Shown here piece by piece: positions 4,423 through 52,020 of a stretch of 64,000 bases of DNA. The stretch lies in the IMG/VR virus record IMGVR_UViG_3300029342_000002. One strand, written 5' to 3'. The stretch's first letter is position 1. Every line of letters begins with the position of its first letter. Source of the stretch: a virus. Under the pieces are notes generated by a model that had not been told where the DNA came from, did not search any database, and was given only the letters and a program-made list of their open reading frames with translations. The position numbers were made by a program, and so were the translations under genes.

Positions 4423-7400
4423 AAGAGCGTATACGAGTGTACCATAAAGACGGAAGTCTTCTGAACGACATGGAAGGCAATGCCGTGGAGCTTAGCGCCG
4501 TGGAGATGACGGACGGCTGGATGGAGGACTGCTTCGTGCAGACCACCATCGAAAGCGCGTACCCCATAAACTTCTCCATCGGCGACTACATTGTATACCG
4601 TGGCGAGCGCTATGAGCTGAACTACGACCCCGGCAAGGCGAAGACAGCAAGAGCAGGCAGTGACAGAGGCGCTTTCAGATACGAGAACGTGAAGCTGAAC
4701 GCCTTGCAGGACGAGCTTGTGAGAGCGCAGTTTCTGGACGTGGTATTGGGAATGGAGAACACGGAAGAGCAGACGATACCCTACACAGCCCTTCCAAAAT
4801 TCGGCTTCTACGTGCAGACCGTGGACGACCTCCTGGACCGCATACAGGCGAACATGGACGAGCAGATGGGCGCAGGACTCTGGGCGCTGTACTCACGAAA
4901 CAAGGAGCGCAGTCTGCAACGAGGCTGTGACGGAACCGTATGGGAGGAGATGTATGGCAAGGGCACTACTGAGACCATCATAGACTCCGCCGCTCTGACC
5001 ATCGACAACCAGAACTGCTGGAACGCCCTCGCGTTAGTGAACTCGAAATGGGACATCAACTTCGTGGTGAGAGGACGCAACGTCTTCGTGGACACGACGG
5101 GGCTGGAGGTTCCGTACGAATTTGTCTACGGCAAGCGCAGGGGTCTGTACGAGATAACACAGACCGCTGATGACAGCCAAGCCGTGACCACCCGTCTGCG
5201 TGCCTACGGAAGTGAGAAGAACCTTCCGACACACTATTATGCCAATCTGTGCGTGGACGTGTTCGGAGAAACATCGAAGATAAGTCATCTTGCCTCCTCG
5301 ACGAACACCGTCCTGCATGTGACCATCCCGAGCCTTAGCTGGGCAGCAGCGGGCAGCTACTTCACGTCAGTGAGAGACGGATCGGCAGCGGAGAGCAGAG
5401 AATATAACGTGACGGTAAAGGCGGGCGACGTTGAAGGCAGAGGCTATGCCGTGTCGTCAGCACGAAAGGAGGGTGAGGGGACAGTCACGATAATCCTGAA
5501 CTCGTCAAACGACGAGTATGGAATGACGATGAATGACGTGGAGGACTTCTACACCGCAGTGATGAAAGAAAGAAAGGTGTACTTCCTTCAAGGCGTGAAC
5601 AAGCAGAGCTTCCCCTCGAAGAACATGATAGCCAATACGGACCAGATGCCGTCCCACATGGCAGTGACAAGGCTGATGCTGCCGGGATTTCCAAAGATGT
5701 CCGTAAAGGAATGGTGGGACACGCAGGCTACCGAGGAAGAGAAGGCTTGGATAAACCCGAGCGGCAAGGAGCACCTTCTTTCAGAACTGAAGAACCGTCC
5801 CTACGTGGACTCGGTGAACATCAAGGAGCTTGGCGTGAGAAACGGCAGCGTGATGTTCGATACGGAGAACAAGAAGGAAGGCATCATCGAGATATATCCG
5901 ACCATCGAAGAGATGACGGTGGACGGACAGCGCATAGACGAACTGAACAGCGGTTCTGCCATCAAAGACAACGGCATCTTCAAGGACGGACAGACCGTGC
6001 CTCCCTTCTCGGTGACGCTTTCCCCGAAGGTGAACTTCGACATAAACATGCTGAAGAAGGAGGACTTCACAATCAGCATGAAGGACGGCAAGTGTGGCGG
6101 CAGAGAGTTTAAGGTGAACGGATCAGTGAAGGAGAACGGCGTGTGGAAGCTGACCCTTGACCGTGTGAAAGACGATGCCTTAGAGCTGTACTTCCCGAAC
6201 AAGGACTTTCAGATGGAGAGCGGAGACCACTTCGTGCTGACCGGCATAGAGATGCCCGACTCTTACGTGGAAGCTGCGTCGGCAAAACTTCTGAAATACG
6301 CCCTCGCATGGCTGGACAAGAACGACTATACGCGATACGTGTTCGAGCCGAAGGTGGACGAGATATTCATGGCGTATCAGCATGACAAGGCGAAGGCAGA
6401 CACCACCGGCAAGACGGCGAGCCTTTACGAAACCCTCAAGGCAGGCAGTCTGCTGCACTTCAGCGACACAGACCTGAAGATAGACAAGAGCGGCGTCATA
6501 GAGAGACTCATCATCCGTGAGGAGCTTGGCAGCATCCCCACTTACGATGTGACCATCAAGGAAGACAAGGACGTGGGAACGCTGCAAAAGATGCAGGACG
6601 CCATAGACACGGTCACGATGAGCGTGAAGTCGGGTCTCTCGTCGGCGCAGATAGAAGGTCTGATACGCAGCAGGGGAGCGAAATACTTCCTCTCAAAGAC
6701 AGATCCCGACACAGCGCAGGACGTTATCCGCTTCCTTCGCGGTCTTACCGTTGGAAGGACTGGGGACGGATATGGCGTGACGGGCGAAGGGGCTGCTACG
6801 CTGAGCAGCTGTGTGGTGGAGAGCGTGCGCAACGCTGAGGCTACTGACGAGGACCGAACCATCGTGGGCGGCAAGGGCTTTGACCTCTATATGGGCAAGG
6901 ACGGCAAGAGCCACCTCTACATTGACTACCTGACGACACGCACGAAGTTCTTCGCAGCAAGCGCTGAGGTAAGAAAGGTGAGCTATTCGGGCGGTACTAC
7001 GCTCTTCTCAAACGCTGGCAGCACAATAATGAAGGTGGCTCACGTACTGGATGATGCAGGAGTGACTGTCGGCTACAAATGCTATGCTGCTGCTGATGAC
7101 GGCACAACACGGACGGCAAACTGGTGGCATGTGGGCATGATGGCGCTGTGCCAGACCTTTAATGTGAAGGCTGGTGAGACGGAGAACCTTCAGAACCGCT
7201 ACTACTGGCGCCTTGTGGTGGGCACGGGACAGGAGACGTTAGAGGACGGCAAGCTGTATGACTACGTGATACTGTCAAACAAGAGGGCGTTCATGGGCAG
7301 CGAGGCTTGCGTGCCGGTGACATCGCAAAGGGTGATAGGCGCTGACGGCAAGGCGTTAGTGTTCGGCGACGTGATGATACAGGTGACCACAACGGGCGAG

Positions 7401-40149: not shown

Positions 40150-41334
40150 ATGAGGTATTTTATCAGTACTAAGGAGAGTAAAAGGAACGAGAGCGGGATG
40201 ATTCCCGTATCGGTGGTGTTCCGTCACGAGGGTAGGGAGTTTGCTGCTTCAACTGGCATAGCGGTGAAGTACGCAATGAACGGCATGGTGTTCTCGGCAG
40301 AGGAGCCTAATCTGAAAGCCAAGACAAGGAGGCTTATGTGTATCATGGACGAGGTGGATAGGTATGTCCTTGAGCACGTGGATTCGGATTATGAGCGGAT
40401 GAAGGAGGATTTGCGCTGCATCGTTACGGGCAAGGACCCGAGGGAAAAGAGGTCGCTTGCAAGTTTTGTGCGTGAGTTTGCCGAACTGAAGAGTGGGAGT
40501 ACAAGGAAAATATATCTCAGGACGGCGGCGTTGATTGAAGGCTATGCGCCTGAGGCGACGTTCGGTTCTGTGAACGGCTCGTGGCTTGACGGCTTCGTGC
40601 GGTCTATTGGCGAGAATGCAAGCGTGAACTATGCTGCCATCAACCTGAGGAATATACGTGCGGTGTTTAACTGGGCGATAGACAACGAATGGACATCGTG
40701 CTATCCGTTCAGACGCTACAAGATAAAGTCGGAGAAGGTGGCAATCAACAATATCTCGCTGGAGCAGCTGAGGGCGGTGCGTGACTTTCCTCTTGATGAC
40801 TGGCGTCGGATTTACCGGGACTTATTCATGTTGTCGTTCTATCTGTGCGGCATCAATCCTGCGGACTTGCTGCGATTGAAGGCGTCGGATATGAAAAACG
40901 GGCGTATTCGCTACAAACGGGCGAAGACAGGGCATTTGTTTGACATTCCAGTACCGAAGCCCGCTGAGGATATTATAAGCCGCTGGAGGGGCAGGAAATG
41001 GCTTCTATGCCCTCTTGACAACTATTCCGACTACAGGGGCTTTTATTGTCACTGGAATGCTGCTCTGAAGAAAATCGGCAGTCTAGAGCTTGCCCCGGAC
41101 AAGTCGGGTGGGTTGCGCAAGAAGGTCTGGCGTCCGATTGTGGAGGGTCTGACGACGTACACGGCTCGTTATACGTTTGCGAGCATCGCCGCGGAACTTG
41201 AGATTCCGCGTGAGACTATAGCTCTTTGTCTCGGTCATTCGTGGGCTGATGTGACGAGCCACTACATCGCCTATGACACTAAGCGCATAGATGATGCGGT
41301 GGCTCGGATTGTGGCTTACGTGGAGGGGAGCTGA
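40150..41334 (+). CDS. int: tyrosine recombinase / phage integrase
   Basis: C-terminal catalytic blocks (TYTARYTFASIAA, LCLGHSWADVTSHYIAY). 394 aa. Adjacent to the tRNA fragment. Confidence 0.8.
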   Translation: MRYFISTKESKRNESGMIPVSVVFRHEGREFAASTGIAVKYAMNGMVFSAEEPNLKAKTRRLMCIMDEVDRYVLEHVDSDYERMKEDLRCIVTGKDPREKRSLASFVREFAELKSGSTRKIYLRTAALIEGYAPEATFGSVNGSWLDGFVRSIGENASVNYAAINLRNIRAVFNWAIDNEWTSCYPFRRYKIKSEKVAINNISLEQLRAVRDFPLDDWRRIYRDLFMLSFYLCGINPADLLRLKASDMKNGRIRYKRAKTGHLFDIPVPKPAEDIISRWRGRKWLLCPLDNYSDYRGFYCHWNAALKKIGSLELAPDKSGGLRKKVWRPIVEGLTTYTARYTFASIAAELEIPRETIALCLGHSWADVTSHYIAYDTKRIDDAVARIVAYVEGS

Positions 41335-41996: not shown

Positions 41997-43031
41997 TTAC
42001 TGGTCTTCGGGATAGTCTTTTCCGACCGCATGGAGGGCGTTCATTTCGCGTTCGGCGCGTTCTGCTCCGGGGAGCTGGAAGGCTGCGAATGTCTCGGGTG
42101 AGAGTCCGATTTCTCGGACGATGTACCGCTGCGTCATGGAGATGTTGGGGACGTTGCCTGACATGTGTCCCATGCAGAGGGCTATCTGTTCGATGGGGAT
42201 GCCTTTGATCGCGAGGTTGGTGGCGAAGGAGCGGCGACCGGTGTGTGAGGAGACGAACTCCCACTTGTGTCCTCTCTGCGTGCGTCCTGCGCGGAAGACC
42301 TTGGTGATGGTGTCTATTCCGCATGCCCGGCAGATGTCGCGTATGTTGTCGTTGTAGCACCTTACGGAGATTTCTCTCGGCTCGGTGGGGGAGGTCCGTT
42401 GCAGATAGATGCGCAGCCACGGATGGATGGGGACCTTGACGACGGTCTTGGTCTTGTGCGAGACGTATGTGATGATGCGTCCGTCCTCGCTGATGTTGTC
42501 CGGCGAGAGTGTGAGGCAGTCGGAGAGGCGTGCTCCGCACAGGCATTCGAGCATGAAGATGCGCTTGGCGTGCTTGGCTGCTTTGGTGCGTGGCGTGAAC
42601 TCGTGGATGCGCCGTATCTCGTCGTCGGTGAGCGCTACGGACTGCGACGGGACTTTCTTTGTGCGCAGGACTGTCCCGAAATTGAGTGACGGGACGGGCT
42701 TGGAGGAGTTTTCGCGTATGATGGCGTTGACTTCGGCGAAGATGGTCTTCGCTGAGTTTGGCGCGTATGATGACGCTATCTCCTCTCGGAAGTCCTGAAG
42801 GTTGTCGTCGGTGAGGTCTTCCCACATGGGCGGGCGTCCGACTATGCCCTTGAAGATGTTGACCACCTTTACTCGTCCCGGATGTTTCCATATCCAGGCT
42901 CCGTAGAAGGTGTGGCGCCAGGGATAGCCGTCGTATGTGGCGAAATAGCCTTGTCGGATGGCATTGGCGTACTTTTCCTGCTGTTCGGGAGTGAGCATCT
43001 CCTGCCAGCGTCTTGTCTTGAGTTGTGTCAT
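41997..43031 (-). CDS. second tyrosine recombinase
   Basis: GARLSDCLTL, SSHTGRRSFATNLAIKGIPIEQIALCMGH and MTQRYI correspond to the R..HxxR..Y catalytic blocks. 344 aa. Confidence 0.8.
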   Translation of the reverse strand: MTQLKTRRWQEMLTPEQQEKYANAIRQGYFATYDGYPWRHTFYGAWIWKHPGRVKVVNIFKGIVGRPPMWEDLTDDNLQDFREEIASSYAPNSAKTIFAEVNAIIRENSSKPVPSLNFGTVLRTKKVPSQSVALTDDEIRRIHEFTPRTKAAKHAKRIFMLECLCGARLSDCLTLSPDNISEDGRIITYVSHKTKTVVKVPIHPWLRIYLQRTSPTEPREISVRCYNDNIRDICRACGIDTITKVFRAGRTQRGHKWEFVSSHTGRRSFATNLAIKGIPIEQIALCMGHMSGNVPNISMTQRYIVREIGLSPETFAAFQLPGAERAEREMNALHAVGKDYPEDQ

Positions 43032-43172
43032 AATATGATGGATTAAGACTTCCTCATCTCTTTCCCTTTTGCAAAGGTATAATATTATAATATAATATGG
43101 ATGAGGAATGGATGGTTTAACTTGGTTTTAACATTGTGCGCATCTGGATGTGCTTTTTGGCATTAAACGGAA

Positions 43173-43213
43173 AATCCGCAATAAGGGACTTTTTGTGTCG
43201 GTTATTGCGGATT
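43173..43213 (-). terminator. hairpin terminator candidate downstream of the lipoprotein gene
   Basis: AATCCGCAATA pairs with TATTGCGGATT (11 bp), followed on the minus strand by a T-rich stretch. Confidence 0.45.
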
Positions 43214-43227
43214 CATTGGAATACGAT

Positions 43228-43827
43228 TTACTGGTTGTAAAACAGATTTTTGAGATGATATTTTTCTACGATGCTGTCTTGTAGAGCAACAAAGACACGC
43301 ATGGAATAAGTATCGTTTCCCCAACCTGGAGCAGCCTCAGACTTGGTTATGGTGAGAGAAACCGTTTTTGTAGGAGATTCCCATGTGTATTCTTGAGATT
43401 TCCTCTTAAACAGCTTCTGGTCGTCTTCTTCCGGTGAACCTACAGTCATTTTGTACTGGCGGGCAGACATGTACTTGAAGAATTTGGTTACATCGGACTG
43501 AAAAGCGTCTTTGTTGGCATAAGGATCGCTGATGTACGACAAGCTGTTGACACGACCATCCTTATGGCGTATTAAAGCCTGACATTTAAAGGCTATACCT
43601 GCAAATGTGTTGTCAGTAAGCAGATAGAAGTTTTCGTAGTCTATCTCTGGTACTGCCAATCCTTTCTTCACAAGATTAAGGACGGTGTCTCCCATCTGGA
43701 TTTTTTCATTCAGGTAAAGACTACTGTCTGCTTTTGGGAGGTTCTCGGCTTTTGATGGATTTCCTTCACAAGAGAACGACAGGGCAACAATGGCGAGCGG
43801 AATAAATGGAAGCTTTTTTGATTTCAT
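43228..43827 (-). CDS. lipoprotein
   Basis: MKSKKLPFIPLAIVALSFSCEG is a signal peptide with a lipobox Cys. Confidence 0.65.
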   Translation of the reverse strand: MKSKKLPFIPLAIVALSFSCEGNPSKAENLPKADSSLYLNEKIQMGDTVLNLVKKGLAVPEIDYENFYLLTDNTFAGIAFKCQALIRHKDGRVNSLSYISDPYANKDAFQSDVTKFFKYMSARQYKMTVGSPEEDDQKLFKRKSQEYTWESPTKTVSLTITKSEAAPGWGNDTYSMRVFVALQDSIVEKYHLKNLFYNQ

Positions 43828-43940
43828 AATTTTAAGATGATAATTGTTAAAAGTGTGGCCTCTGTAATTTCAAGATAGGTTGTTCTTTGCGCGAGACTAC
43901 AAAATATTTAAGAGAGGAAGTTTGCATAATAGTTGTAAGT

Positions 43941-44010
43941 GGCTCAGGTGGGCCTTACTGGGCCTATCTGAGCCTCTTTAGGTGATGGGCCTCGCTGGGC
44001 CTCTTTATCT
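43941..44010 (+). repeat. 10-bp phased GCCT repeat array (locus 4 of 5, longest)
   Basis: GGCTCAGGTG GGCCTTACTG GGCCTATCTG AGCCTCTTTA GGTGATG GGCCTCGCTG GGCCTCTTTA. Confidence 0.6.
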
Positions 44011-44373
44011 GATGTGGTCGGCTATGCGGAGGACCTTGTACTTGCGGTGGAGGTCGGCAATCTCGTCGCGGAGCTGTTCGATCGTGCGCTTCAATCCGGC
44101 GTTTGTGGCATCTCTGCGCTCGATTTCGGCATGGAGGGACTTGACGGTGTTCTGTAGTTTGCCGATGCGGTAATTGAGCATATTGTTATCGCTCTTCGCT
44201 TTTTCTGCCTGTCTTTGTAACTCGGCTTCGCCTGTATTGCTCTTTCGGAGGGTGTCGTTCTCTTTGCGAAGCATGCAGATGAGGTCGAGGAGCTTCTGGT
44301 AGTTGCGTAGGATGTGGAGCATCTGATGCTCGAATGGTACGTCTTCGTTGGTTTTGTTTTGTGGTCTAAACAT
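44005..44373 (-). CDS. coiled-coil protein
   Basis: 122 aa with heptad-like, L/E/K/R-rich sequence. Confidence 0.55.
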   Translation of the reverse strand: MFRPQNKTNEDVPFEHQMLHILRNYQKLLDLICMLRKENDTLRKSNTGEAELQRQAEKAKSDNNMLNYRIGKLQNTVKSLHAEIERRDATNAGLKRTIEQLRDEIADLHRKYKVLRIADHIR

Positions 44374-44448
44374 CTTTTGACTTGACCGTGATGTCGAGGG
44401 CTTGGTTAATGGTGCCAGGGCGAGCCTGGCGGTTTTAGACGGGACGGG

Positions 44449-45042
44449 TTAGACGAGGGTGACGGTGTAGGCGTGGTGTGGCAGCTGTTTGTATTGACCA
44501 AACCATGTCTTATATTTGCGCGAAACGATGAAGCCGAGCATCTTGAGAAGACCGATGGCATTGGTAGCGTATGGCTCGTCTATGACGATGAATGGGGAGC
44601 CTGCGGAATCGAGGTTGATAATGTCTCGCATGAATTGAGGGAACGGATATTCGTATTCGTCCCACTCTCTTGGTTGTTCGCAATCCAGATCGTACTCTCT
44701 TATGTGGCTGCGGCTGACGGTTTTCTCACCGTTTTCTATACGTTCTATGTTTACGGTATAGTATTTTATCATTTCGCCCCAAACGTTCTTTTTTTTCTTC
44801 CACTTTTTTTCATTGACAACGTAGTGTGTAATGATAGGGACAGTGGAAATGAAAAGGGGATTTTTGGGGGCGTTCTTGTAATCGAGAAAGCGCATTGTTC
44901 TGATTGTGAGCTTTGCGGACATATCGTTCTCGCGGAAGAACTCGACCACCGCGTTTTGGAATGCGGCGGTGTCGAAGGGTGGGGCTTTGAAGCCTTTTTC
45001 TTTAAGAATGTCCTGTGCTCGGACAAATTTGGTTACTGACAT
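44449..45042 (-). CDS. hypothetical protein (first gene downstream of the RT locus)
   Basis: 197-aa ORF with the array-type leader (plus strand CATAATTG..TTTGGTTGATAG) and an upstream hairpin. Confidence 0.6.
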   Translation of the reverse strand: MSVTKFVRAQDILKEKGFKAPPFDTAAFQNAVVEFFRENDMSAKLTIRTMRFLDYKNAPKNPLFISTVPIITHYVVNEKKWKKKKNVWGEMIKYYTVNIERIENGEKTVSRSHIREYDLDCEQPREWDEYEYPFPQFMRDIINLDSAGSPFIVIDEPYATNAIGLLKMLGFIVSRKYKTWFGQYKQLPHHAYTVTLV

Positions 45043-45256
45043 AATTGTTTTATTGTTTGGTTGATAGTGGCGGAGGAGGCGATGTGTGCGCCTCGCTACG
45101 CCTCTTCAGGCTGGCTGTGCTAAGATTGTGAATACAAAGGTAGTGATTTTTGCGATTATCGGACAGCCTTTTGGTGATGTTTTTTTCAAGGAAAAGCGGA
45201 CACGCTCTGAGGATGTGTTGCATTTCTGTAAGTGAATGATCGAAGACCGTTCTGAG

Positions 45257-45299
45257 AAACAGATCTATATCGACAGGTGCTGTCGATAAAGATCTGTTG
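45257..45299. ncRNA. 17-bp interrupted hairpin in the RT-downstream region
   Basis: AACAGATCT-at-ATCGACAG-gtg-CTGTCGAT-aa-AGATCTGTT. Confidence 0.4.
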
Positions 45300-45374
45300 A
45301 TGCAAACAGTCTGGAGTGAATGAATCCTCCTTGCGTGTCCTGTGGGATGCAATTCCCGTGGTGCGGACTTCTCA

Positions 45375-45460
45375 TGAGTGGCGGCACATGGCTGTAGGTG
45401 TGTGATGTGTCCAGAACGTGTGCGGGATGTGTGAGGCGGATGCCGCCTTGAACATCCCGC
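45375..45460. ncRNA. RT-associated structured module, copy A
   Basis: GGCGGCACATGG-CTGTAGGTGTGTGATGTGT (motif 45392-45410), then the nested hairpin GCGGGATGT..GGCGG-atg-CCGCC..ACATCCCGC (45422-45460), then GCTGAAC. Confidence 0.4.
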
Positions 45461-45558
45461 ATTAAAGCTCTGGATGCTGAACGGGACTCTCTTGAAGAAC
45501 GCTTCCCTGTGCTTGGGATGATTGAGAGGCTGAGCCTTTCTGAGGGGCGGCTGTGATG

Positions 45559-45680
45559 TCTTGGCACGTGTCTGTAGGTGAATGATGTTGCCTGCGTAGC
45601 AGAAGGCAGCGGTCCCAGTGGGTAACACTCGGGACCGTGCCTTCTTGCTATTGCCGGTATCTGAATGTGACATCCTTGCT
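45559..45680. ncRNA. RT-associated structured module, copy B
   Basis: GTCTTGGCACGTGT-CTGTAGGTGAATGATGTT (45572-45589), then the hairpin GAAGGCAgCGGTCCC..GGGACCGTGCCTTC (45602-45644), then CTGAATGTGACATCC. Confidence 0.4.
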
Positions 45681-45715
45681 CCGCGATGCCCTGTGCCGGG
45701 CTGGTGATGCGGCTC

Positions 45716-46981
45716 TTAGAGGTTGGCTACGATGGTGTCGTAGGCGGCTTTGCTGGTAAGCAGGGCCTTGCGGGCGCAGCCTAATGTGAGGTAGCCGGTG
45801 ATGATGGGGGCGGTCTTGCTGCGGTTGGCGGTGACGTTTCGTCCTCGTCCTCTCTGTATGCAGCCGACCTGCTGATTCTTGACGAACCCTATGCCTCCTA
45901 TCTTTCGCTTGCCCGTCTTGACGGCTCGGAGGCAGTCCATGACGAACGTGTTGAGCGTCTGGACGTCCTCTTCGACGTTTATGATGGGCAGGACCTGCGT
46001 GGACCATGAATGTCCTTCGTACCCCTTGTATAGATAGCGGTTGACGGAGTTTATGGCTTTTTGCAGGGTGACGTCACGCTTCTTGACTGTGCGCTTCTCG
46101 ATTTCCTTCTGAAAAGTCTTGATGCGCGTAGACGAGAGCGAGATGCTGCTGCCCTTGATGGAGAATCCGAGGAACTTGAACCAATGGTCAGCGTCGAGGA
46201 ATTCTACCTTCTTTGGATTGAGCTTCATCTGCATCTTCGCCAGCTCTTCCTCCATGATGCGCTTGGCTTCCTGCCAGTCCTCGCCCACGAAGATGGCGTC
46301 GTCCGAATAGCGGCAGTAGACGCCGCGGAGACGGGAGAGGCGCTCGTCAATGTGATAGAGGACCACGTCGGCAAGCCATGAGGCTACGCTGCATCCCTGC
46401 TTGAGCGACTGGTATTTCTCGGAGAGAGTGCCGTCGGTGTCGAAATAGAGATTGCAGTGGTAGTAAGCGCGTAGGACGTCTATCAGAGCGGAATGACCGT
46501 GACGAAGCTCTACCTGATCGAACGCCCAGTCGATGTACGACAGGAGCACCGTATCGAAATACTTGGACAGGTCGGACTTGAAGCCTCCGATGCGTCCTTC
46601 CGCGAAGGATATATGTCGGGATATGTTCTGTACGACGCGTCCGCATCCGATGCCCTTCTGATATGATGTGCAGCAGGGATGGACCATTTCGGGTGTCAGT
46701 TCGAAGAGGAGGTCGTTGGCAATGGAGAGGAGTATGCGGTCGGCAGGCTCGTTGATGTAGACGGTGCGGAATTCTCCGTTGTCCTTCGGTATAAGAGCCG
46801 TGTGAGGTGGCATTATCCTGTACTTGCCGTCGCGTATCTTCTGATACATCAAGGCACGTGCCTCGGGTGTGGTGAGCTGATAGAGCGTGGCTTTGTTGAT
46901 GTCCTTGTCGAGTCCTTTCTGTATGGCGTACTGCCAACGCTCGGACTGGAAGGCCATCTGTAAGATTTTGTCTTCTTTCAT
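45716..46981 (-). CDS. reverse transcriptase (stand-alone; class not assigned)
   Basis: ATG at 46981 with the array-type leader. RT motifs 1-7: FRTVYINEP/DRILLSIANDLL, FKSDLSKYFDTV, LKQGCSVASWLADVVL, YCRYSDDAIFVG, MKLNPKKVEF, FKFLGFSI. About 140 aa of thumb-like tail. No other domain recognised. Confidence 0.85.
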   Translation of the reverse strand: MKEDKILQMAFQSERWQYAIQKGLDKDINKATLYQLTTPEARALMYQKIRDGKYRIMPPHTALIPKDNGEFRTVYINEPADRILLSIANDLLFELTPEMVHPCCTSYQKGIGCGRVVQNISRHISFAEGRIGGFKSDLSKYFDTVLLSYIDWAFDQVELRHGHSALIDVLRAYYHCNLYFDTDGTLSEKYQSLKQGCSVASWLADVVLYHIDERLSRLRGVYCRYSDDAIFVGEDWQEAKRIMEEELAKMQMKLNPKKVEFLDADHWFKFLGFSIKGSSISLSSTRIKTFQKEIEKRTVKKRDVTLQKAINSVNRYLYKGYEGHSWSTQVLPIINVEEDVQTLNTFVMDCLRAVKTGKRKIGGIGFVKNQQVGCIQRGRGRNVTANRSKTAPIITGYLTLGCARKALLTSKAAYDTIVANL

Positions 46982-47084
46982 AATTCTTTGGATTTTATGG
47001 TTAATAGAGCGTGAAACATAATGTTTCACGCAGTTTCTGGCGGTGAGGCTCAGAGGAGCGGTGCCTGGATATAAACGGATGATC

Positions 47085-47150
47085 TGGTACTGTCATCTGT
47101 AGTGACGTCGCCGGGATGATATGGCCGGCGACGTCCCGATTGTGACAGTG
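47085..47150. ncRNA. RT-associated structured module, copy C1 (weaker motif)
   Basis: CTGTCAT-CTGTAGTGA overlaps an 11-bp perfect hairpin, GACGTCGCCGG-gatgatatgg-CCGGCGACGTC (47104-47134), extended by CTGTCA/TGACAG. Confidence 0.35.
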
Positions 47151-47209
47151 CCGATGAATGTTCTTCTGCCTCCTCACGGGAAGGACGACAAATCCTTTGC
47201 GGTGCAGCC

Positions 47210-47320
47210 GTGGGCTTGGAGTCTGGCTGTAGGCGAATGATCTGACGACTGCGGTTCGAGGTCAGGACCCAGCCACGGTAATCGACCTGGCTGGTTCCTG
47301 AGTCTCAGAGAGCAGCGTGT
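47210..47320. ncRNA. RT-associated structured module, copy C2
   Basis: GGCTTGGAGTCTGG-CTGTAGGCGAATGATCT (47227-47243), then the hairpin CAGGAcCCAGCC..GGCTGGtTCCTG (47263-47300). Confidence 0.4.
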
Positions 47321-47369
47321 GAACGATGCCCACCCACTGCACGGCGGTGACTTTCGGGGTGATGACGGA

Positions 47370-48380
47370 CTATCGGTCAGCCCACTCGTCAATCTTGTCG
47401 CTCACGGACATGTCTGAATCGGCGATGAGCTGCTTGAGCACGCCCAGCAAGCGCCATCCCTCATCTTCGCGGGCATACTCGGCAGCCTTGCTTTCGATAT
47501 GCTCAAGAGACTTGGCTTCGGACATATTGCGACGGCCCTGCTTGAAGTGTGCTCCGTGGAACAAGACCATGTTGCGCATGGTGAAGTAGGCGCCGGAACC
47601 CTTGTAGGCGTTGATGAACGCCTCGGACTGCTTGGTGTCGGCAGGGAGACGCTTCATAAGCTTGTTGAACTTGACAACAAGACGATAGAGACGTTCTCCG
47701 TTGACGTCATTCATTGCAAGGGCAAGGTCGCGGAAAGGGCTGTAAAGCTTGGACTCCAAGTCAGAGACGAAGATATTCTCTCTGCTAAGACGTACATAGG
47801 GCTTACCCTTGCAAGTGTGAGTGCCTTGGCGCAACAGCTTTTCGATGTAAGAGCGGAGCTTCTGAACATAGTCGAACGCCATGTATGAAGCTACCCTGCC
47901 GTTGAACCAAAGGGCACGCTGTTCGTAGCAGACCTTGTCCTTGTGCTTGAGCATCTTGTACTGGTCGAGCAGTTCCTTCTCAAGCATGCGCCACTGATAG
48001 GCGTAGCCCTTGTTCTGCAAGAGGGCGTTGAAGGAGACGTTCTGACGCTCCATGCGGTCGAGCATGTGGAACATCTGTGACATTACCCAACGGCGGTAGA
48101 GCGTGTAGTTGCGGATGTGACCCCCTCCTGCGATGCTCGCGAAGACGGGATCGTCGTCCGTAACCTGTACGGGGACTCCGTCAACGACCTTGACGACCAT
48201 CTCCTCTCCCATGGGAAAGTAGTTGGAAACGTCTACGCCTGCTGCCTTGAGAGCTGCGATGCGTGTTGCCGCTGACTTCGCCTTTGGCGCTGTTGTGTTC
48301 TGCGACTGTGCCTGTGTGTCGGCGTTAGCTACCTCTGTCATTGTGAACTCACCTGAAATGATAAGATTTCTCTTTTTCAT
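47370..48380 (-). CDS. hypothetical protein
   Basis: 336-aa ORF with the array-type leader and an upstream hairpin (GGCGAGGGGATGCCTCGTC). Confidence 0.6.
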   Translation of the reverse strand: MKKRNLIISGEFTMTEVANADTQAQSQNTTAPKAKSAATRIAALKAAGVDVSNYFPMGEEMVVKVVDGVPVQVTDDDPVFASIAGGGHIRNYTLYRRWVMSQMFHMLDRMERQNVSFNALLQNKGYAYQWRMLEKELLDQYKMLKHKDKVCYEQRALWFNGRVASYMAFDYVQKLRSYIEKLLRQGTHTCKGKPYVRLSRENIFVSDLESKLYSPFRDLALAMNDVNGERLYRLVVKFNKLMKRLPADTKQSEAFINAYKGSGAYFTMRNMVLFHGAHFKQGRRNMSEAKSLEHIESKAAEYAREDEGWRLLGVLKQLIADSDMSVSDKIDEWADR

Positions 48381-48480
48381 AATTCAAAGATTTAAAATTG
48401 TTAATAATGTTGGTTGATTGGTGGGCGAGGGGATGCCTCGTCCTGTTTTTTGGTGGTGAGAATGGCAGGGGATAGGATTG

Positions 48481-48520
48481 GCCTCACTGAGCCTCACTGA
48501 GCCTTACTAAGCCTTTTGGG
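48481..48520 (+). repeat. 10-bp phased GCCT repeat array (locus 5 of 5)
   Basis: GCCTCACTGA GCCTCACTGA GCCTTACTAA GCCTTTTGGG. Confidence 0.6.
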
Positions 48521-48526
48521 GCGTCC

Positions 48527-48982
48527 TTAATCTTCTTTTGACTTTGGCTCTACCCATTGTCGGAGGATAATGAGGTCCTTGTCGTTCGGGGACTGCCAAA
48601 ACCAGCTGCCCCACTTGCTCTGCCATTGGAGCTGTCCGTCAAACAACATGAGAAGGACGAAGACTTCGAGCTGGCAGCGTGCCACTTCGCGTGATACGCC
48701 GTAGAGCATGTCGTGGTCAGAGAGGTCTTTCTCAGGGAGAGCCTTGAAATAACTGCGTCGGTGTGACTCGGAGCGCTCAGAGGGGATGGAGTGCTTGTAC
48801 TGCTGGTAATACCTTTCGATTTCGCGGAGCATAACGGACCCGTTGAGAGGGAGGATGTTGACATCGTCGAGACTGACAAGCTCTCTGTCCAGACGGAGTG
48901 TGCGCTTCTCGAAATTGACGGTGAAACGTGAGCCGAGTTCTACGGCTTGTGAGATGTTCTGCATAAATTGCGTGTGTGTCAT
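48527..48982 (-). CDS. hypothetical protein
   Basis: ATG at 48982 carries the array-type leader (plus strand CATAACTCTTGATGTTTTGGTTTG). The tracked start at 49015 lies upstream of that leader. Confidence 0.55.
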   Translation of the reverse strand: MTHTQFMQNISQAVELGSRFTVNFEKRTLRLDRELVSLDDVNILPLNGSVMLREIERYYQQYKHSIPSERSESHRRSYFKALPEKDLSDHDMLYGVSREVARCQLEVFVLLMLFDGQLQWQSKWGSWFWQSPNDKDLIILRQWVEPKSKED

Positions 48983-49204
48983 AACTCTTGATGTTTTGGT
49001 TTGTTGGCGGTACACTCAAAGGGAATGTCGCATGACTATATGGCGTTGATGTTATCCCGTGTGAAGCACGCGGAGATGTCTGAGTGATAGCTTCAGACAT
49101 CTCGCGTATCTCGTACGGGAAACCAAATAATCCCTCCTTGTGTACCCATTCAGGCTGCGATACCTATTGCTGGTCCATAATCATGTTTTGATGGTTGATG
49201 ATGT

Positions 49205-49320
49205 GGCGTGACGAAGACTTGGCGCATTACTGTAGGTCGTTGATGTATCCAGCGGTAGACTCATCCGGGTAGTGTCCCGGATGAGACGCTGGAGACTGAA
49301 TCCTGTCTTCGCTCACGCCT
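49205..49320. ncRNA. RT-associated structured module, copy D (detached)
   Basis: Closing helix GGCGTGAcGAAGAC / GTCTTCgcTCACGCC. CTTGGCGCATTA-CTGTAGGTCGTTGATGTAT (49230-49248). Hairpin CCAGCG-gtaga-CTCATCCGGG-tagtgt-CCCGGATGAG-a-CGCTGG (49249-49292), then CTGAATCC. Confidence 0.45.
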
Positions 49321-49348
49321 GTTTAAGGCTGCGCTACCTTGGCTTAGG

Positions 49349-49570
49349 TTATAACTGCTGCCACTTGGTTGTGCCGTTGGCCTCCTCTGTGCGGTAGTAA
49401 TCTTGGTCTTCTTCGACTTCGATGCAGTTGTCTATATAATCGTCACTTGTCAGAACGATGTCGTTTTTGAGATAAGCATCTCTTATACGCTGTACAGCTT
49501 CTGCTTCGCTGTCGGCATTCACACTTACCACCTTGTTGAGAAACTCGGTGATTGATACATAATACTTCAT
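49349..49570 (-). CDS. hypothetical protein
   Basis: 73-aa acidic ORF with an array-type leader variant and a hairpin (CAGAGGGA..TCCCTCTG). Confidence 0.55.
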   Translation of the reverse strand: MKYYVSITEFLNKVVSVNADSEAEAVQRIRDAYLKNDIVLTSDDYIDNCIEVEEDQDYYRTEEANGTTKWQQL

Positions 49571-49624
49571 ATTTGTCTTTTTTTTATTTGGTTGAACTTG
49601 CAGAGGGATTGCTCCCTCTGAGGT

Positions 49625-49897
49625 TTAGGCGTAGATGTTGTGCGTCTCGATGAGGCGCTTGTACTTCTTAGGGAATTTGTCCCAACCGTAGTAGACCTGT
49701 ACAATCTGGCAGGAGGACCAGGAATTGAGAGCGTACTCGTAGATGTAGTAGCACTTCTTTTGTCCCGTGTCGTCATAGAGAATCCAATCGCCTGAAGCGA
49801 GTGAACCCTCGCTGAGGTGGATGGCATAACCGCCTGCATCCTCGTAGCGGAAGACGAGGTCGTCAACATAATGGTAGTCACATCTGAATTTTCTCAT
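49625..49897 (-). CDS. hypothetical protein
   Basis: 90-aa ORF with the array-type leader. Ends in GCC-TAA. Confidence 0.55.
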   Translation of the reverse strand: MRKFRCDYHYVDDLVFRYEDAGGYAIHLSEGSLASGDWILYDDTGQKKCYYIYEYALNSWSSCQIVQVYYGWDKFPKKYKRLIETHNIYA

Positions 49898-49989
49898 AAT
49901 TTATATAATATTTGGTTCTTATTGTTCCGTTGTCGGTGTCGCTCCGATTGTGGTTTCTTTCCCCAACGGATAAGCCATGCTACTACGTT

Positions 49990-50145
49990 TTAGGCAGGAG
50001 AAGCTCTGAAATCGAAAATATAGCCATTGTCGCGCATTTCACGTGCGTACTCCAATGCCTTACTTCTTGAACTGAATATCTGCGGAGTCATGCAATAACC
50101 CCACGAAGTCCACATCTCCAATTTTGTTCTGATAGGTTTTCCCAT
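49990..50145 (-). CDS. small hypothetical protein (51 aa)
   Basis: Hand-translated as MGKPIRTKLEMWTSWGYCMTPQIFSSRSKALEYAREMRDNGYIFDFRASPA. Array-type leader at 50145. Ends in GCC-TAA. Confidence 0.45.
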   Translation of the reverse strand: MGKPIRTKLEMWTSWGYCMTPQIFSSRSKALEYAREMRDNGYIFDFRASPA

Positions 50146-50202
50146 AATTCTTTAATTGTTGGTTAATAGCACTCTCCGCGAGGGAGAGTCTTTTTTTAGC
50201 TT

Positions 50203-50883
50203 TTACATGCGGGTAGGACTTACGATCCGCACGCTGTAATAAGGTGTATTGAAGGGGTATTTGACCTCGTTGACGCAATACATCACGGAGGGCGTGCTCA
50301 TAGTGAGCGTGTCTTGACAAATGACATTGGCGTTCATGCCGTGAGCCATGAGATTGAGGGCGCACATCTTGCAGGCTATGGGGTCAACGTCTTGTGCAAT
50401 GTATCGGAAACGGCGTCCTGCCGAATGGTCAAGACTGCTCTTCTCCATATAATGAGCGAGAAGGAGACGACCGCTGCCAGAGGCGCAGTCGTTGACTATA
50501 CCGCTCTGCTTTTCGTTCAACGAAGATATGCGTGACATGATGTCGGCTACGCTTGGCGGTGTGAAAAACTGTCCTGTATGGGACGCCTTGCCACGTGTGA
50601 GATACAGCTCCTCGTAAAGGATGCCGAACACGTCAATCCACTTGCCTTGCTCCATAGCTGTAGCAACGTCTGTGAGCCACAGGGTAGCGAGACCGGCAAA
50701 TTCGGGACACTTTTGTGTGCAGTCAAGAAGATGCTGATGATAGGTGTCGGGACCGGACTGGAAAGCCTTTACGCTGAAAAACTCGAGCAGATAGTCGAGG
50801 AAATCATTAAGAGCCAACTCGTGAGGACGATGGTTCTTGTCTGCCTGTGCAGAAATGATGTCGATGTACTTTTTCTTTTCCAT
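50203..50883 (-). CDS. HsdM/N6-adenine methyltransferase-like protein, truncated (no NPPF/Y motif seen)
   Basis: GQFFTPPSVADIM (motif X) and VNDCASGSGRLLL (motif I) are present. The protein ends about 25 aa after ..VICQDTL, with no recognisable catalytic NPP[FY]. Confidence 0.5.
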   Translation of the reverse strand: MEKKKYIDIISAQADKNHRPHELALNDFLDYLLEFFSVKAFQSGPDTYHQHLLDCTQKCPEFAGLATLWLTDVATAMEQGKWIDVFGILYEELYLTRGKASHTGQFFTPPSVADIMSRISSLNEKQSGIVNDCASGSGRLLLAHYMEKSSLDHSAGRRFRYIAQDVDPIACKMCALNLMAHGMNANVICQDTLTMSTPSVMYCVNEVKYPFNTPYYSVRIVSPTRM

Positions 50884-50958
50884 AATTCTTGTTTTTTAAT
50901 GGTTGATGGTGCCACGCACAAAGGCGTGGCGGTTTTCAGGCTGCTCCGTAAGTCTTTT

Positions 50959-51948
50959 TTAGGCTGTTTCGGAATCGACGTAGCTGCGTGCCGTATCGTA
51001 AATCTCGGCAATCTGTTTTTTGTCAAGACGATAGCAGCCTTTAATATTGTCCGAAAATTCTTCGAGCGTAAGCATCGGGTCGTTATAGAGGGACTCGCAA
51101 CAATATTCGAGACACTCGTCGTAATCCCAAGACGTGCAGTAACACTCCCAATAGTTGTCGCTGCCATAGCTGGCACAGCCGCATTCTTCGTCAGGTTCGT
51201 AAGGATAGACGGACGTGCAATGCTCTATGAGGTGGCAGACAAAGCTGTAACACTTCTGGACGTCCTCGATAACTGTGAACTCATGGTCGGTGTGCGGTTC
51301 GTAATAACCGCAGGACATATTGATGCACGATACGGTGACACCGTTTCTGCGCAATGCCTCGACATCGGTCATAAGACCCGTGCTGACGACATATCCGTAG
51401 CTTGTGCAGTCGGCATCCTTGATGAATTCGTCAGAACAGATGCTATCAAAGGAAATACTTGTGACCATATCGCTGTTGCCGCGACGGTCGATCTGAGCAC
51501 AGAAGCGACAATCGTTGAAGAAGCTGATGTCGGCAGCACTTGAGCCTACGCATCCAATCTCTTCGCCTACGAAGAACGCACACTTGAGAACGTCGTAACG
51601 CTCAAGGCATTGCAGGGCGATGAATATGCCGTTCTTGTCGTCAGCACCGAGACCGCACTGCTTGCGGACTTTTGGCGAGTAGCCAAAGATGACACCTTGA
51701 CTCTCAACGCACACGAAGTCCTTGGGATGAAGATGCTGCACCTGGTCCATGTGTGCGCACAGGCAAGGATAGCTCTCTGCTTCGCCTTTGGTGACGAAGA
51801 GATTGCCGTACTCGTCCTGTGTGACAATGGCTGAGGGAACAATGTTCTTGATGTGTTTCTTGATGAAACGACGCATGCGCTTCTCTTCGTCACTTGGCGA
51901 GAATACGCAATAAAGACTCTTGAGTAGGTCAAAATTCAATTCTTTCAT
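50959..51948 (-). CDS. M42/M20-type metallopeptidase-like protein with Cys/acidic C-terminal extension
   Basis: CAHMDQV, GLGADDKNG and FFVGEEIGCVGS resemble the metal-ligand blocks of M42/M20 aminopeptidases. Confidence 0.45.
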   Translation of the reverse strand: MKELNFDLLKSLYCVFSPSDEEKRMRRFIKKHIKNIVPSAIVTQDEYGNLFVTKGEAESYPCLCAHMDQVQHLHPKDFVCVESQGVIFGYSPKVRKQCGLGADDKNGIFIALQCLERYDVLKCAFFVGEEIGCVGSSAADISFFNDCRFCAQIDRRGNSDMVTSISFDSICSDEFIKDADCTSYGYVVSTGLMTDVEALRRNGVTVSCINMSCGYYEPHTDHEFTVIEDVQKCYSFVCHLIEHCTSVYPYEPDEECGCASYGSDNYWECYCTSWDYDECLEYCCESLYNDPMLTLEEFSDNIKGCYRLDKKQIAEIYDTARSYVDSETA

Positions 51949-52020
51949 AATTCTATTGTTTTTAAATCTAAATTGGTTGTACTTGGAAGGCAGGAGGAGG
52001 AAGGTCCTCCCGCCTTAGTT

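What the first reader, a model, noticed from the sequence alone, without database searches (positions are those of the whole stretch)
45375..45680. Repeated ~90-130 nt module: GGCRC-N4-CTGTAGGYG-NN-TGATGT, long hairpin, CTGAAY (4-5 copies)
Plus-strand copies are:
- A: motif 45392-45410, hairpin 45422-45460.
- B: motif 45572-45589, hairpin 45602-45644.
- C2: motif 47227-47243, hairpin 47263-47300.
- D: motif 49230-49248, hairpin 49249-49292.
- C1 (weaker): motif 47097-47107, hairpin 47104-47134.

The single-stranded motif is conserved (CTGTAGGTGTGTGATGTGT / CTGTAGGTGAATGATGTT / CTGTAGGCGAATGATCT / CTGTAGGTCGTTGATGTAT). The following hairpins differ completely in sequence but keep 9-14 bp stems. 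B and D also share upstream G[AT]CTTGGC[AG]C and downstream CTGAAT..G[TA]C[TA]TC..GCTC. A conserved motif combined with structure-only conservation is what a functional RNA family looks like. I saw the motif nowhere else in the window.
Basis: seen in the sequence. Interest (0 to 1): 0.75.

Follow-up and report, generated by a model that had tools for sequence, protein, structure and literature searches.

The report
ncRNA array of phage UG27 retroelement
The repeats are six clear copies and one decayed copy of a 120-150-nt structured non-coding unit that always accompanies a phage reverse transcriptase (class UG27) and lies on the strand opposite to it; this is real and biologically interesting, but a 2022 paper predicted an RNA here and a September 2026 preprint appears to describe these arrays, so it is not new.

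Summary
A covariance model finds six strong copies in the window, all on the + strand, plus one degenerate copy (C1), and nothing else in 64 kb.

Each unit has the same plan:
- a closing stem P1;
- a ~25-nt conserved single-stranded stretch J1 (YGGCRC-RTNN-CTNTA-N6-TGAT);
- a long hairpin P2 of free sequence (median 67 nt);
- YRAAY (J2), then P1'.

The units flank a three-gene UG27 reverse-transcriptase system: RT 45716-46981, RTas337 and RTas346, all on the - strand.

In 80 related viral contigs and 11 of 13 Bacteroidales prophage loci searched, arrays of 4-8 units start just after the RT stop codon. Every unit checked is antisense to the RT. Among 120 viral stretches matching a 14-base J1 pattern, every true unit was UG27-linked.

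Stems covary, both within orthologues and between paralogues. G.U outnumbers A.C 2.4:1, so the + strand is the folded strand.

Best reading: an array of RT-partner ncRNAs whose conserved core is the RT handle and whose variable hairpin is the cDNA template.

A UG27 ncRNA was predicted in 2022. A preprint of 24 Sep 2026, which I could only probe by word counts, mentions "UG27 ncRNA", "ncRNA array" and "cDNA hairpin". I rate this as already known.

The parts
45197..45341 (+). P1 45198-45214 / 45324-45340; J1 45216-45240 (TGTTGCATTTCTGTAAGTGAATGAT); P2 about 45241-45318; J2 TGAAT 45319-45323.
   Evidence: Covariance model 41 bits, E 2e-9, not in the seed. Inverted repeats I1 and I15. Folds. Compensatory changes against L002.
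45365..45499 (+). Unit A. P1 45368-45379 / 45486-45497; J1 45382-45406; P2 45407-45477; J2 TGAAC 45478-45482.
   Evidence: Covariance model 21.6 bits, E 2e-4, not in the seed. Fold. Inverted repeat I4.
45543..45686 (+). Unit B. P1 45544-45560 / 45669-45682; J1 45562-45586; P2 45587-45661; J2 TGAAT 45662-45666.
   Evidence: Covariance model 51 bits. Fold. Inverted repeat I10.
47040..47180 (+). Unit C1, a degenerate copy. It keeps the same layout (P1 47041-47058 / 47161-47179, hairpin 47082-47155) but the J1 motif has decayed.
   Evidence: Covariance model only 6.8 bits, E 0.19 with filters off. Direct repeat D11 with C2. Folds.
47198..47349 (+). Unit C2. P1 47198-47215 / 47328-47346; J1 47217-47241; P2 about 47242-47319; J2 TGAAC 47320-47324.
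   Evidence: Covariance model 42 bits. Fold.
49007..49148 (+). P1 49007-49024 / 49131-49147; J1 49026-49050 (CTATATG variant); P2 about 49051-49123; J2 CAAAT 49124-49128.
   Evidence: Covariance model 58 bits, the best hit in the window. Direct repeat D8 with D. Fold.
49201..49321 (+). Unit D. P1 49205-49218 / 49305-49319; J1 49220-49244; P2 49245-49296; J2 TGAAT 49297-49301.
   Evidence: Covariance model 55 bits. Fold.
45716..46981 (-). Reverse transcriptase of class UG27 (421 aa from the ATG at 46981; catalytic YSDD present).
   Evidence: PADLOC RT_UG27 E 2.6e-212 over the full length; Pfam RVT_1. The nearest solved structure is the group II intron RT GsI-IIC, E 3.5e-13.
47370..48380 (-). 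RTas337, an accessory protein of UG27 systems; function unknown.
   Evidence: PADLOC RTas337 E 4.3e-101. No Pfam, PDB or Foldseek relative.
48527..48982 (-). RTas346, an accessory protein of UG27 systems; function unknown. The likely start is the ATG at 48982; the listed ORF runs to 49015.
   Evidence: PADLOC RTas346 E 2.8e-50. No PDB relative.

Best explanation
The repeats are the non-coding RNA partner of the phage's UG27 reverse-transcriptase system, present as a dispersed array: three units after the RT gene, two between RT and RTas337, and two upstream of RTas346.

Each unit is an independently folding RNA of about 120-150 nt, read from the + strand, antisense to the RT operon.
- A sequence-free closing stem P1 brings the unit's two ends together.
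- The conserved core is J1 (YGGCRC-RTNN-CTNTA-N6-UGAU) on the 5' side and YRAAY on the 3' side. It includes a probable U-A / G.A / A.R / U.Y stack of box C/D type directly under the hairpin. I infer that this core is what the RT, possibly with RTas337 and RTas346, recognises.
- The long, near-palindromic hairpin P2, whose tip is free to change, is the cargo. I infer that it is reverse-transcribed into a hairpin cDNA, one product per unit. The logic resembles a retron msr/msd, multiplied into an array.

Shown here: the units, their architecture, covariation, strand bias and exclusive linkage to UG27.
Inferred: transcription of the + strand, RT binding, and cDNA synthesis from P2.
What the cDNA hairpins do for the phage is unknown.
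For: Linkage to UG27:
- The RT is UG27 and its neighbours are RTas337 and RTas346.
- All 80 related viral loci have arrays next to the RT: 573 covariance-model hits at E<=1e-3, and the 300 listed are all antisense to the RT.
- Eleven of 13 prophage loci searched (Segatella copri, Leyella, Muribaculaceae, Alistipes, Butyricimonas and Bacteroides, plus Faecalimonas and Acutalibacteraceae bins), with RT identity down to 55%, give 48 of 48 hits antisense. Nearly all lie downstream of the RT, the first starting 13-25 nt after it.
- Of 120 viral stretches matching a 14-base J1 pattern, 59 carry the UG27 proteins. The only 2 others with true units are fragments of RT-bearing contigs.

Structure:
- 277 of 326 unit windows fold as P1 + J1 + P2. 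Median unit length is 148 nt and median P2 length 67 nt.
- Orthologue alignment A1: 98.1% of cells paired, 12 compensatory pairs, 0 of 500 shuffles as high.
- Paralogue alignment A4: 277 double-change cells against 120 in shuffles.
- The base right after UGAU covaries in Watson-Crick fashion with the base right before YRAAY.

Strand:
- G.T 491 against A.C 203 in P2 arms, with an expected ratio of 1.15. 73 units have more G.T and 14 have more A.C. A control inside the RT coding region gives 885 against 1080.
- Alignment A1 contains an invariant G.U pair (62:128) and a near-invariant U.G (60:132, 40 of 48).
- All seven window units fold better on the + strand.
- Weak extra support: a promoter-like site on the + strand at 44488-44518 and a terminator-like site on the + strand at 48423-48452.

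Literature:
- Mestre et al. 2022 (PMC9226505) predicted a structured ncRNA beside UG27 RTs in gut phages.
- The preprint 10.64898/2026.09.22.753630 holds 'UG27' 74 times, 'UG27 ncRNA' 11, 'ncRNA array' 10, 'hairpin' 33, 'cDNA' 24 and 'cDNA hairpin' 2.
Against: - I have no expression data.
- No canonical Bacteroidetes promoter (TAnnTTTG) is conserved on either strand within 4 kb of the RT in the relatives.
- In the relatives the array fills the whole gap between the RT stop and the next same-sense gene. This suggests that the sense transcript also crosses the array.
- P2 terminal loops are mostly 3-4 nt with no excess of GNRA or UNCG. That is more like a plain palindrome than an ornate RNA.
- G.T wobbles are also the best-tolerated mismatch in folded ssDNA, so the strand bias does not strictly prove RNA.
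- I could not read the preprint. Its content is inferred from word counts only.
- The cDNA step is an analogy (retrons, DRT2) plus those counts, not a result obtained here.
Confidence: 0.6

Rival explanations
1. The folded, selected molecule is + sense single-stranded DNA. In this reading the RT operon transcript (- strand sense) runs through the array, the RT copies it, and the resulting + sense cDNA carries the conserved motif and folds into the hairpins. The 'ncRNA' would then be on the same strand as the RT.
For: - The array fills the intercistronic gap of a same-sense gene string in the relatives, and no + strand promoter is conserved there.
- On the - strand, the reverse complement of A0 is a long hairpin followed by GCTTTTCC, which resembles a terminator.
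- Terminal loops are mostly triloops.
- G.T is the mildest DNA mismatch, so it could produce the bias seen.
Against: - A sense RNA template would carry C.A mismatches at the positions of the invariant G.U (62:128) and the near-invariant U.G (60:132).
- The UGAU/YRAA sheared-GA arrangement is a classic RNA motif.
- The + strand folds are 1.6-18.6 kcal/mol more stable under RNA parameters in six of the seven window units and equal within 0.2 in D0.
Confidence: 0.17
2. The units are + strand ncRNAs that work without being copied. Examples would be scaffolds or regulators of the RT complex, antisense regulators of the RT operon, or protein-binding (k-turn-like) decoys.
For: - The structure, strand and linkage evidence is the same as for the best explanation.
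- The conserved GA motif suggests a protein-binding platform.
- The antisense position relative to the RT operon fits a regulatory role.
Against: - Hypervariable, near-palindromic hairpin tips look like cargo rather than like a binding surface.
- The units lie in intergenic DNA, so they are not antisense to coding sequence.
- The preprint's word counts point to cDNA hairpins.
Confidence: 0.13
3. The units are cis-acting elements of the sense (- strand) mRNA, such as terminators, RNase processing sites, stabilisers or antitermination sites.
For: They are intergenic hairpins inside a co-oriented gene string.
Against: - The wobble bias favours the opposite strand by 2.4:1.
- - strand folds are weaker.
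- The 25-nt conserved single strand and the closing stem are unnecessary for such roles.
- The units occur only at UG27 loci, not at other operon junctions of the same 64-kb window.
Confidence: 0.05
4. The units are DNA-level elements: attC-like recombination sites, single-strand replication or priming sites, or MITE/REP-like selfish repeats.
For: - Same-orientation hairpins with free stem sequence resemble arrays of attC sites.
- P1 looks like terminal inverted repeats.
- Two tyrosine recombinases lie 2-5 kb away.
Against: - There is no R''/R' core (GTTRRRY). The invariant positions are CTNTA, TGAT and YRAA.
- The copies share no sequence in P1 or P2, unlike MITE or REP elements.
- No unit gain or loss is seen among near-identical phages.
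- Linkage to an RT is exclusive.
- The array position is fixed across prophages of many genera.
Confidence: 0.05

Closest known systems
UG27-associated ncRNA (Mestre et al. 2022, NAR, PMC9226505) and the 'UG27 ncRNA / ncRNA array' of bioRxiv 10.64898/2026.09.22.753630
   Same: - Same RT class (UG27) and same accessory genes (clusters 337 and 346).
- Same setting: gut phages and prophages of Bacteroidales.
- The structured non-coding element lies in the intergenic DNA beside the RT.
- The preprint's vocabulary (ncRNA array, hairpin, cDNA hairpin) matches what I see.
   Different: - The 2022 paper described one putative ncRNA 'with three long stem-loops' and did not validate it. What I resolve is a tandem or dispersed array of autonomous units of about 148 nt, encoded antisense to the RT.
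- I could not read the preprint, so I cannot say whether the antisense orientation, the P1/J1/P2 anatomy, the GA motif or the hypervariable tips are already reported there.
Retron msr/msd ncRNA
   Same: - A closing stem formed by the two ends (a1/a2 in retrons, P1 here).
- A conserved region with G residues right after the 5' strand of that stem.
- A long hairpin of free sequence that is the cDNA template in retrons.
- Overall size of 120-200 nt and genetic linkage to an RT.
   Different: - The RT is not of the retron clade.
- Retron ncRNA is single-copy, upstream of the RT and on the same strand. These units are multi-copy, mostly downstream and antisense.
- There are no msr stem-loops and no Rfam msr match.
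- A 2'-5' branch is unknown here.
DRT2 (UG2), DRT3 (UG3+UG8) and DRT9 (UG28) ncRNAs
   Same: These are UG/Abi-family RTs that need a dedicated structured ncRNA encoded next to the gene. From my own knowledge of the published work, the DRT2 ncRNA serves as both scaffold and template.
   Different: - Those are single ncRNAs in host defence islands. From my own knowledge they lie on the RT strand; state only their position (5' of the RT ORF for UG2 and UG28, at the 3' end of UG3+UG8).
- UG27 is phage-borne and not enriched in defence islands. Its RNA is arrayed and antisense.
Box C/D (kink-turn) RNAs
   Same: UGAU(G) on the 5' side and (C)UGA on the 3' side of a helix can form U-A, G.A, A.G, U.U and G-C, exactly like box C paired with box D. 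The window copies have the canonical UGAUG...CUGA.
   Different: - There is no 3-nt bulge or canonical C-stem geometry; a 24-nt strand takes its place.
- Relatives have UAAA or CAAA instead of CUGA.
- There are no guide elements and no L7Ae or fibrillarin context.
Integron attC arrays
   Same: Same-orientation imperfect hairpins between genes. Structure rather than sequence is conserved, the terminal part is variable, and folding is strand-specific.
   Different: - No attC core sites.
- A long conserved single-stranded motif, which attC sites lack.
- Strict linkage to an RT rather than to an integron integrase.

Membership tests
UG27 RT-associated ncRNA / ncRNA array | Encoded beside a UG27-class RT together with the accessory genes of clusters 337 and 346 | tested here: met
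   PADLOC RT_UG27 2.6e-212, RTas337 4.3e-101, RTas346 2.8e-50. The units flank all three genes.
UG27 RT-associated ncRNA / ncRNA array | Conserved secondary structure supported by covariation | tested here: met
   A1: 98.1% of cells paired, 12 compensatory pairs, 0 of 500 shuffles as high. A4: covariation score 0.458 against 0.157.
UG27 RT-associated ncRNA / ncRNA array | Co-occurs with UG27 across genomes and is absent elsewhere | tested here: met
   80 of 80 viral loci and 11 of 13 prophage loci searched carry units. In the pattern scan, all 61 stretches with true units were UG27-linked and the other 59 were structure-less chance matches.
UG27 RT-associated ncRNA / ncRNA array | Match to the published covariance model or figure (2022 Suppl. 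Fig. S6; 2026 preprint) | not testable with these tools
   The supplement is not held, the preprint is not readable, and there is no Rfam family.
UG27 RT-associated ncRNA / ncRNA array | Expressed RNA that is bound or copied by the RT | not testable with these tools
   No transcriptome or cDNA data are available here.
Retron msr/msd | RT of the retron clade | tested here: not met
   Retron models score E 2.5e-13 (PADLOC) and 45.9 bits against a cutoff of 235 (NCBIfam), compared with UG27 at 703 bits.
Retron msr/msd | Single ncRNA upstream of the RT on the same strand | tested here: not met
   The units are multi-copy, antisense to the RT and mostly downstream of it.
Retron msr/msd | Terminal inverted repeats (a1/a2) that close the RNA around a long hairpin of free sequence | tested here: met
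   P1 encloses J1 and P2 in 277 of 326 units. P1 covaries with all pair types.
Retron msr/msd | Branching G with a 2'-5' RNA-DNA link | not testable with these tools
   Conserved G residues follow P1 (positions -9 and -8, 81% and 75% G), but the chemistry is unknown.
Box C/D k-turn RNA | Box C RUGAUGA paired with box D CUGA through tandem sheared G.A pairs | tested here: inconclusive
   GAT of UGAU and one A of YRAAY are invariant in alignment A2, and the U and a second A are at least 90% conserved. The flanking pair covaries. The window copies have UGAUG/CUGA, but the R position is A in many relatives. The geometry is inferred only.
Box C/D k-turn RNA | 3-nt bulge next to a canonical stem; guide sequences; snoRNA-like models | tested here: not met
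   The 5' strand between P1 and the G.A pairs is about 21-24 nt. There is no Rfam snoRNA/sRNA hit at threshold.
Integron attC | R''/R' core sites (RYYYAAC / GTTRRRY) at the base of the hairpin | tested here: not met
   The invariant or near-invariant positions are C..CTNTA..TGAT and T.AA. No GTTRRRY-type core is conserved.
Integron attC | Adjacent integron integrase (IntI) | not tested
   Two Phage_integrase-family genes lie at 40150-41334 and 41997-43031. They were not examined for the IntI-specific insertion.

The most novel reading that the evidence does not exclude
The units are encoded antisense to their own RT and carry a box C/D-like G.A platform. Each feeds a different, rapidly diversifying palindromic hairpin to the RT, so the phage makes a library of hairpin cDNAs. 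These could be, for example, DNA decoys or primers used against host defences or for phage DNA metabolism. Tip turnover would then be under diversifying selection rather than neutral. If the 2026 preprint does not cover the antisense layout, the G.A platform or the tip hypervariability, those parts would be new.
Probability: 0.2. Interest if true: 0.8.

Novelty: already known. Interest (0 to 1): 0.45.

Why it matters
UG27 is the one large UG/Abi reverse-transcriptase class carried by phages rather than by host defence islands. The 2022 survey counted thousands of gut Bacteroidales phage genomes with it, and its role is unknown.

This analysis gives a precise experimental handle on that question. 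The non-coding partner is an array of autonomous units with a conserved core and a free hairpin, on the strand opposite to the RT. From that follow unit boundaries, a covariance model, a prediction of the expressed strand, and candidate residues for mutagenesis.

If each unit templates a hairpin cDNA, the system would be a natural multiplexed producer of ssDNA. That is of interest for retron-style genome-editing tools.

Tried and rejected
- Rfam, at gathering thresholds on the window and at E<=10 on 44000-50500: only chance-level hits.
- Phage GenBank megablast of 43000-52000: no match.
- The 207-aa ORF 45050-45673(-) that spans the array: its translation is low-complexity and not protein-like, so I reject it as a gene.
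- Sigma-54 promoter idea (TGGCAC-N5-TTGC): by inspection of the motif, the -12 GC is replaced by TA and the GGCAC is degenerate in many paralogues. Rejected.
- Frpo-like ssDNA promoter idea: by inspection, the stems are too short to hold two promoter boxes. Rejected.
- Canonical Bacteroidetes promoters: no position-conserved TAnnTTTG on either strand in 71 loci.
- Unit-level indel between near-identical phages: my regex suggested that B was missing in L001 and L002. An alignment showed B is present with a G-to-T change in the motif.
- Hairpin 'targets': P2 sequences match nothing else in the window beyond 12 nt, which is chance level.
- RTas337 function: no Pfam, NCBIfam or PHROG family, no PDB sequence hit, and a fair AF2 model (pLDDT 79) with no Foldseek PDB match. 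RTas346: nothing.
- A column-wise dynamic-programming consensus on the MAFFT paralogue alignment gave meaningless isolated pairs and was discarded.
- GNRA/UNCG loop asymmetry as a strand test: uninformative, with 1 GNRA among 23 tetraloops.
- Reading the 2026 preprint and the 2022 supplement: not held. One word-count probe returned a different paper.

Full report
**Context.** The genes around the finding all lie on the - strand. PADLOC identifies three of them:
- 45716-46981 is a reverse transcriptase of class UG27, E 2.6e-212 over the full length.
- 47370-48380 is RTas337.
- 48527-48982 is RTas346.

Pfam sees only RVT_1 in the RT. The nearest solved structure is a group II intron RT. The catalytic YSDD is present in the sequence. 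The region sits in a temperate Bacteroidales phage. Integrase genes and a lambda-exonuclease-family gene are nearby. The RT has relatives of about 72-75% identity in Segatella copri, Prevotella and other gut Bacteroidales genomes.

**Check of the observation.** The motif is real and non-random: 5 hits against 0.08 expected. I aligned 61 diverse units from the window and related loci (A2) and built a covariance model from them (R1).
- The model recovers six units in the window, all on the + strand, at 21.6-58 bits. Two of them were not in the seed.
- It finds nothing else in 64 kb.
Its true motif position is 47060-47083, not 47097.
- The units sit in three intergenic gaps: A0, A and B after the RT stop; C1 and C2 between RT and RTas337; D0 and D upstream of RTas346.

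**Anatomy.** Constrained folding of 326 distinct units gave the same plan in 277 of them:
- P1, a closing stem of free sequence. It often has a small pyrimidine-rich internal loop and a 3' strand resembling YCCTYCTTG.
- J1, about 25 nt, with consensus YGGCRC-RTNN-CTNTA-N6-TGAT.
- P2, a long hairpin (median 67 nt).
- J2, YRAAY.
- P1', the 3' strand of the closing stem.

The median unit length is 148 nt. In the paralogue alignment, the base immediately after TGAT covaries with the base immediately before YRAAY: T-A 21, A-T 11, G-C 10, C-G 7, T-G 5. P2 therefore abuts both motifs. This places 5'-UGAU-3' opposite 3'-AARY-5', which can be read as U-A, G.A, A.R, U.Y. That is the arrangement of a box C/D (k-turn) non-canonical stem, and the window copies have the canonical UGAUG...CUGA. 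This reading is an inference from sequence, not a tested structure.

**Covariation.**
- One orthologous unit in 48 phages (A1): 98.1% of cells are paired and 12 pairs show compensatory changes. None of 500 shuffles, and no slid control, comes close.
- 59 units from 18 sources, aligned to the model (A4): 68.7% paired against 44% for shuffles and about 40% for slid controls; 277 double-change cells against 120; covariation score 0.458 against 0.157. This alignment is fitted to the model, so it leans towards the structure.
- Even between 99%-identical phages, the A0 hairpin shows T-A to C-G and A-T to G-C swaps plus one G-C to G-T change.
- The distal 30-40 nt of P2 is replaced by unrelated but still self-complementary sequence among otherwise near-identical orthologues.
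- Its loops are mostly 3-4 nt with no GNRA or UNCG preference. The tip therefore behaves as a free palindrome.

**Which strand folds.**
- An nhmmer profile of J1 hit 454 times in the window plus 80 loci, always in one orientation.
- I aligned each P2 arm to its partner with a scoring scheme that treats G.T and A.C alike. This gave 491 G.T against 203 A.C. Composition predicts a ratio of 1.15. 73 units have more G.T and 14 have more A.C. The same test inside the RT coding sequence gives 885 against 1080.
- Alignment A1 has an invariant G.U pair (62:128) and a near-invariant U.G (60:132).
- All seven window units fold more stably on the + strand.

The folded strand is therefore the window + strand, antisense to the RT. 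This fits RNA best. It does not strictly exclude a + sense ssDNA.

**Linkage to the RT.**
- All 80 viral loci recovered with the RT have arrays of 4-8 units with a period of 155-190 nt, starting within about 25 nt of the RT stop. The model gives 573 hits at E<=1e-3, and all 300 listed are antisense.
- In the relatives the gene order is RT, array, small ORF, RTas346, RTas337, then one more unit. In the window lineage the accessory genes lie upstream of the RT and units are interspersed among them.
- The same arrays occur in a clade with 60-63% RT identity.
- They also occur in 11 of 13 searched prophage loci (Segatella, Leyella, Muribaculaceae, Alistipes, Butyricimonas, Bacteroides, plus a Faecalimonas bin and an Acutalibacteraceae bin). 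All 48 hits there are antisense.
- As a reverse test, I scanned the viral collection for a 14-base J1 pattern and obtained 120 stretches. 59 encode UG27-system proteins. Of the other 61, only two contain model-positive units, and both are short pieces of contigs already known to carry the RT. The remaining 59 are chance matches without the structure.

**What is known.** Mestre et al. 2022 (PMC9226505) defined UG27. They showed that it is carried by gut phages of Bacteroidetes and Firmicutes together with clusters 337 and 346, and that it is not enriched in defence islands. They reported a putative conserved ncRNA 'with three long stem-loops' in the intergenic region beside the RT, which they said needed experimental validation. 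The full-text index also returns a bioRxiv preprint dated 24 Sep 2026 (10.64898/2026.09.22.753630, 'Coevolutionary mining of prokaryotic non-coding elements with a genome language model'). I could not open it. Word counts show 'UG27' 74 times, 'UG27 ncRNA' 11, 'ncRNA array' 10, 'hairpin' 33, 'cDNA' 24, 'cDNA synthesis' 3, 'cDNA hairpin' 2 and 'opposite strand' 1. One of the hairpin-DNA phrases is in the abstract. I take this to mean that arrays of UG27 ncRNAs giving hairpin cDNAs have just been described. That reading is inferred from counts only.

**Mechanism.** The best-supported model treats each unit as an autonomous RT-partner RNA.
- P1 brings the 5' conserved strand (with its G residues) next to the 3' YRAAY.
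- The conserved core is the recognition and initiation platform.
- P2 is the template for a hairpin cDNA.

This is the logic of a retron msr/msd, but with a non-retron RT, many units per locus and an antisense layout. The steps shown here are architecture, covariation, strand bias and linkage. The inferred steps are + strand transcription, RT binding and cDNA synthesis.

Points against, or unresolved:
- No conserved canonical promoter was found on either strand.
- The window has only a weak promoter-like site on the + strand (44488-44518) and a terminator-like site on the + strand (48423-48452).
- In the relatives the array fills an intercistronic gap, so the sense transcript probably crosses it.

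The main rival is therefore that the sense RNA is the template and the + sense cDNA is the folded product. The other rivals fit the data poorly, for the reasons given under each: an ncRNA that is never copied, sense-strand mRNA elements, and attC/MITE-like DNA elements. The accessory proteins gave no functional clue.

**Verdict.** The element belongs to the UG27 ncRNA kind that is already in the literature. The points I could not find in the accessible literature are the antisense orientation, the P1/J1/P2 anatomy with a G.A platform, and the hypervariable hairpin tips. These may or may not already be in the 2026 preprint.

Noticed in passing
window 43938-44012, 45526-45545, 48467-48514: A second, unrelated repeat: decamers of the form CTGAGCCTNN (also CTGGGCCT) in intergenic DNA. 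One set sits between units A and B and another between RTas337 and RTas346. Their copy number differs among 99%-identical phages (L002, L003, L004 and the window), so they expand and contract quickly. They could be a regulator-binding array or slippage-prone DNA.
   Followed up: partly
L-loci, alignment A1 columns about 70-110 (e.g. L013:5635-5803, L016:5629-5797, L023:5612-5780): The distal 30-40 nt of the P2 hairpin is swapped for unrelated, still self-complementary sequence among orthologous units that are otherwise almost identical. Some variants are short deletions. The window's hairpins match nothing else in the window.
   Followed up: partly
window 48423-48452 (+): The best intrinsic-terminator-like site of the region (8-bp stem with 6 G-C pairs, then TGTTTTTT) is on the + strand, between two - strand genes (RTas337 and RTas346). 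This hints at antisense transcription across the RT locus.
   Followed up: no
window 44488-44518 (+): A full Bacteroidetes-type promoter consensus (TTTG-N19-TATATTTG) lies on the + strand inside the - strand ORF 44449-45042, about 680 nt upstream of unit A0. It is the only two-box match in 43000-51000.
   Followed up: no
window 43822-43856, 45043-45072, 46976-47010, 48381-48415, 48983-49010, 50878-50912 (- strand sense): Most - strand genes here are preceded, about 20 nt upstream of the ATG, by a conserved TYAACCAAA/TTAACCAT word followed by an A-rich stretch and AATTATG. The same word precedes genes in the related loci. It may be a phage-specific translation or transcription start signal.
   Followed up: no
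window 45050-45673 (-): A 207-codon ORF spans the whole A0-A-B array. Its translation is rich in R, H, S, T and P and is not protein-like. Gene callers could mis-annotate the array as a hypothetical protein.
   Followed up: yes
window 45135-45142 (- strand TACCTTTG) and 45160-45197: On the - strand, the reverse complement of unit A0 is a long hairpin followed by GCTTTTCC. About 50 nt further on lies a -7-box-like TACCTTTG, upstream of the gene 44449-45042. This may be the terminator of the RT operon followed by the next gene's promoter.
   Followed up: no
window 49349-49570 (-), 50203-50883 (-), 40150-41334 (+), 41997-43031 (-): The neighbours of the RT system include a DpnD/PcfM-like protein, an N6-adenine methylase fragment and two tyrosine recombinases. 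These features are typical of a temperate or mobile element's early, anti-restriction region.
   Followed up: no
window 99-3362 (+), 4269-10268 (+): Two very large ORFs (1087 and 1999 aa) have no Pfam match at all.
   Followed up: no
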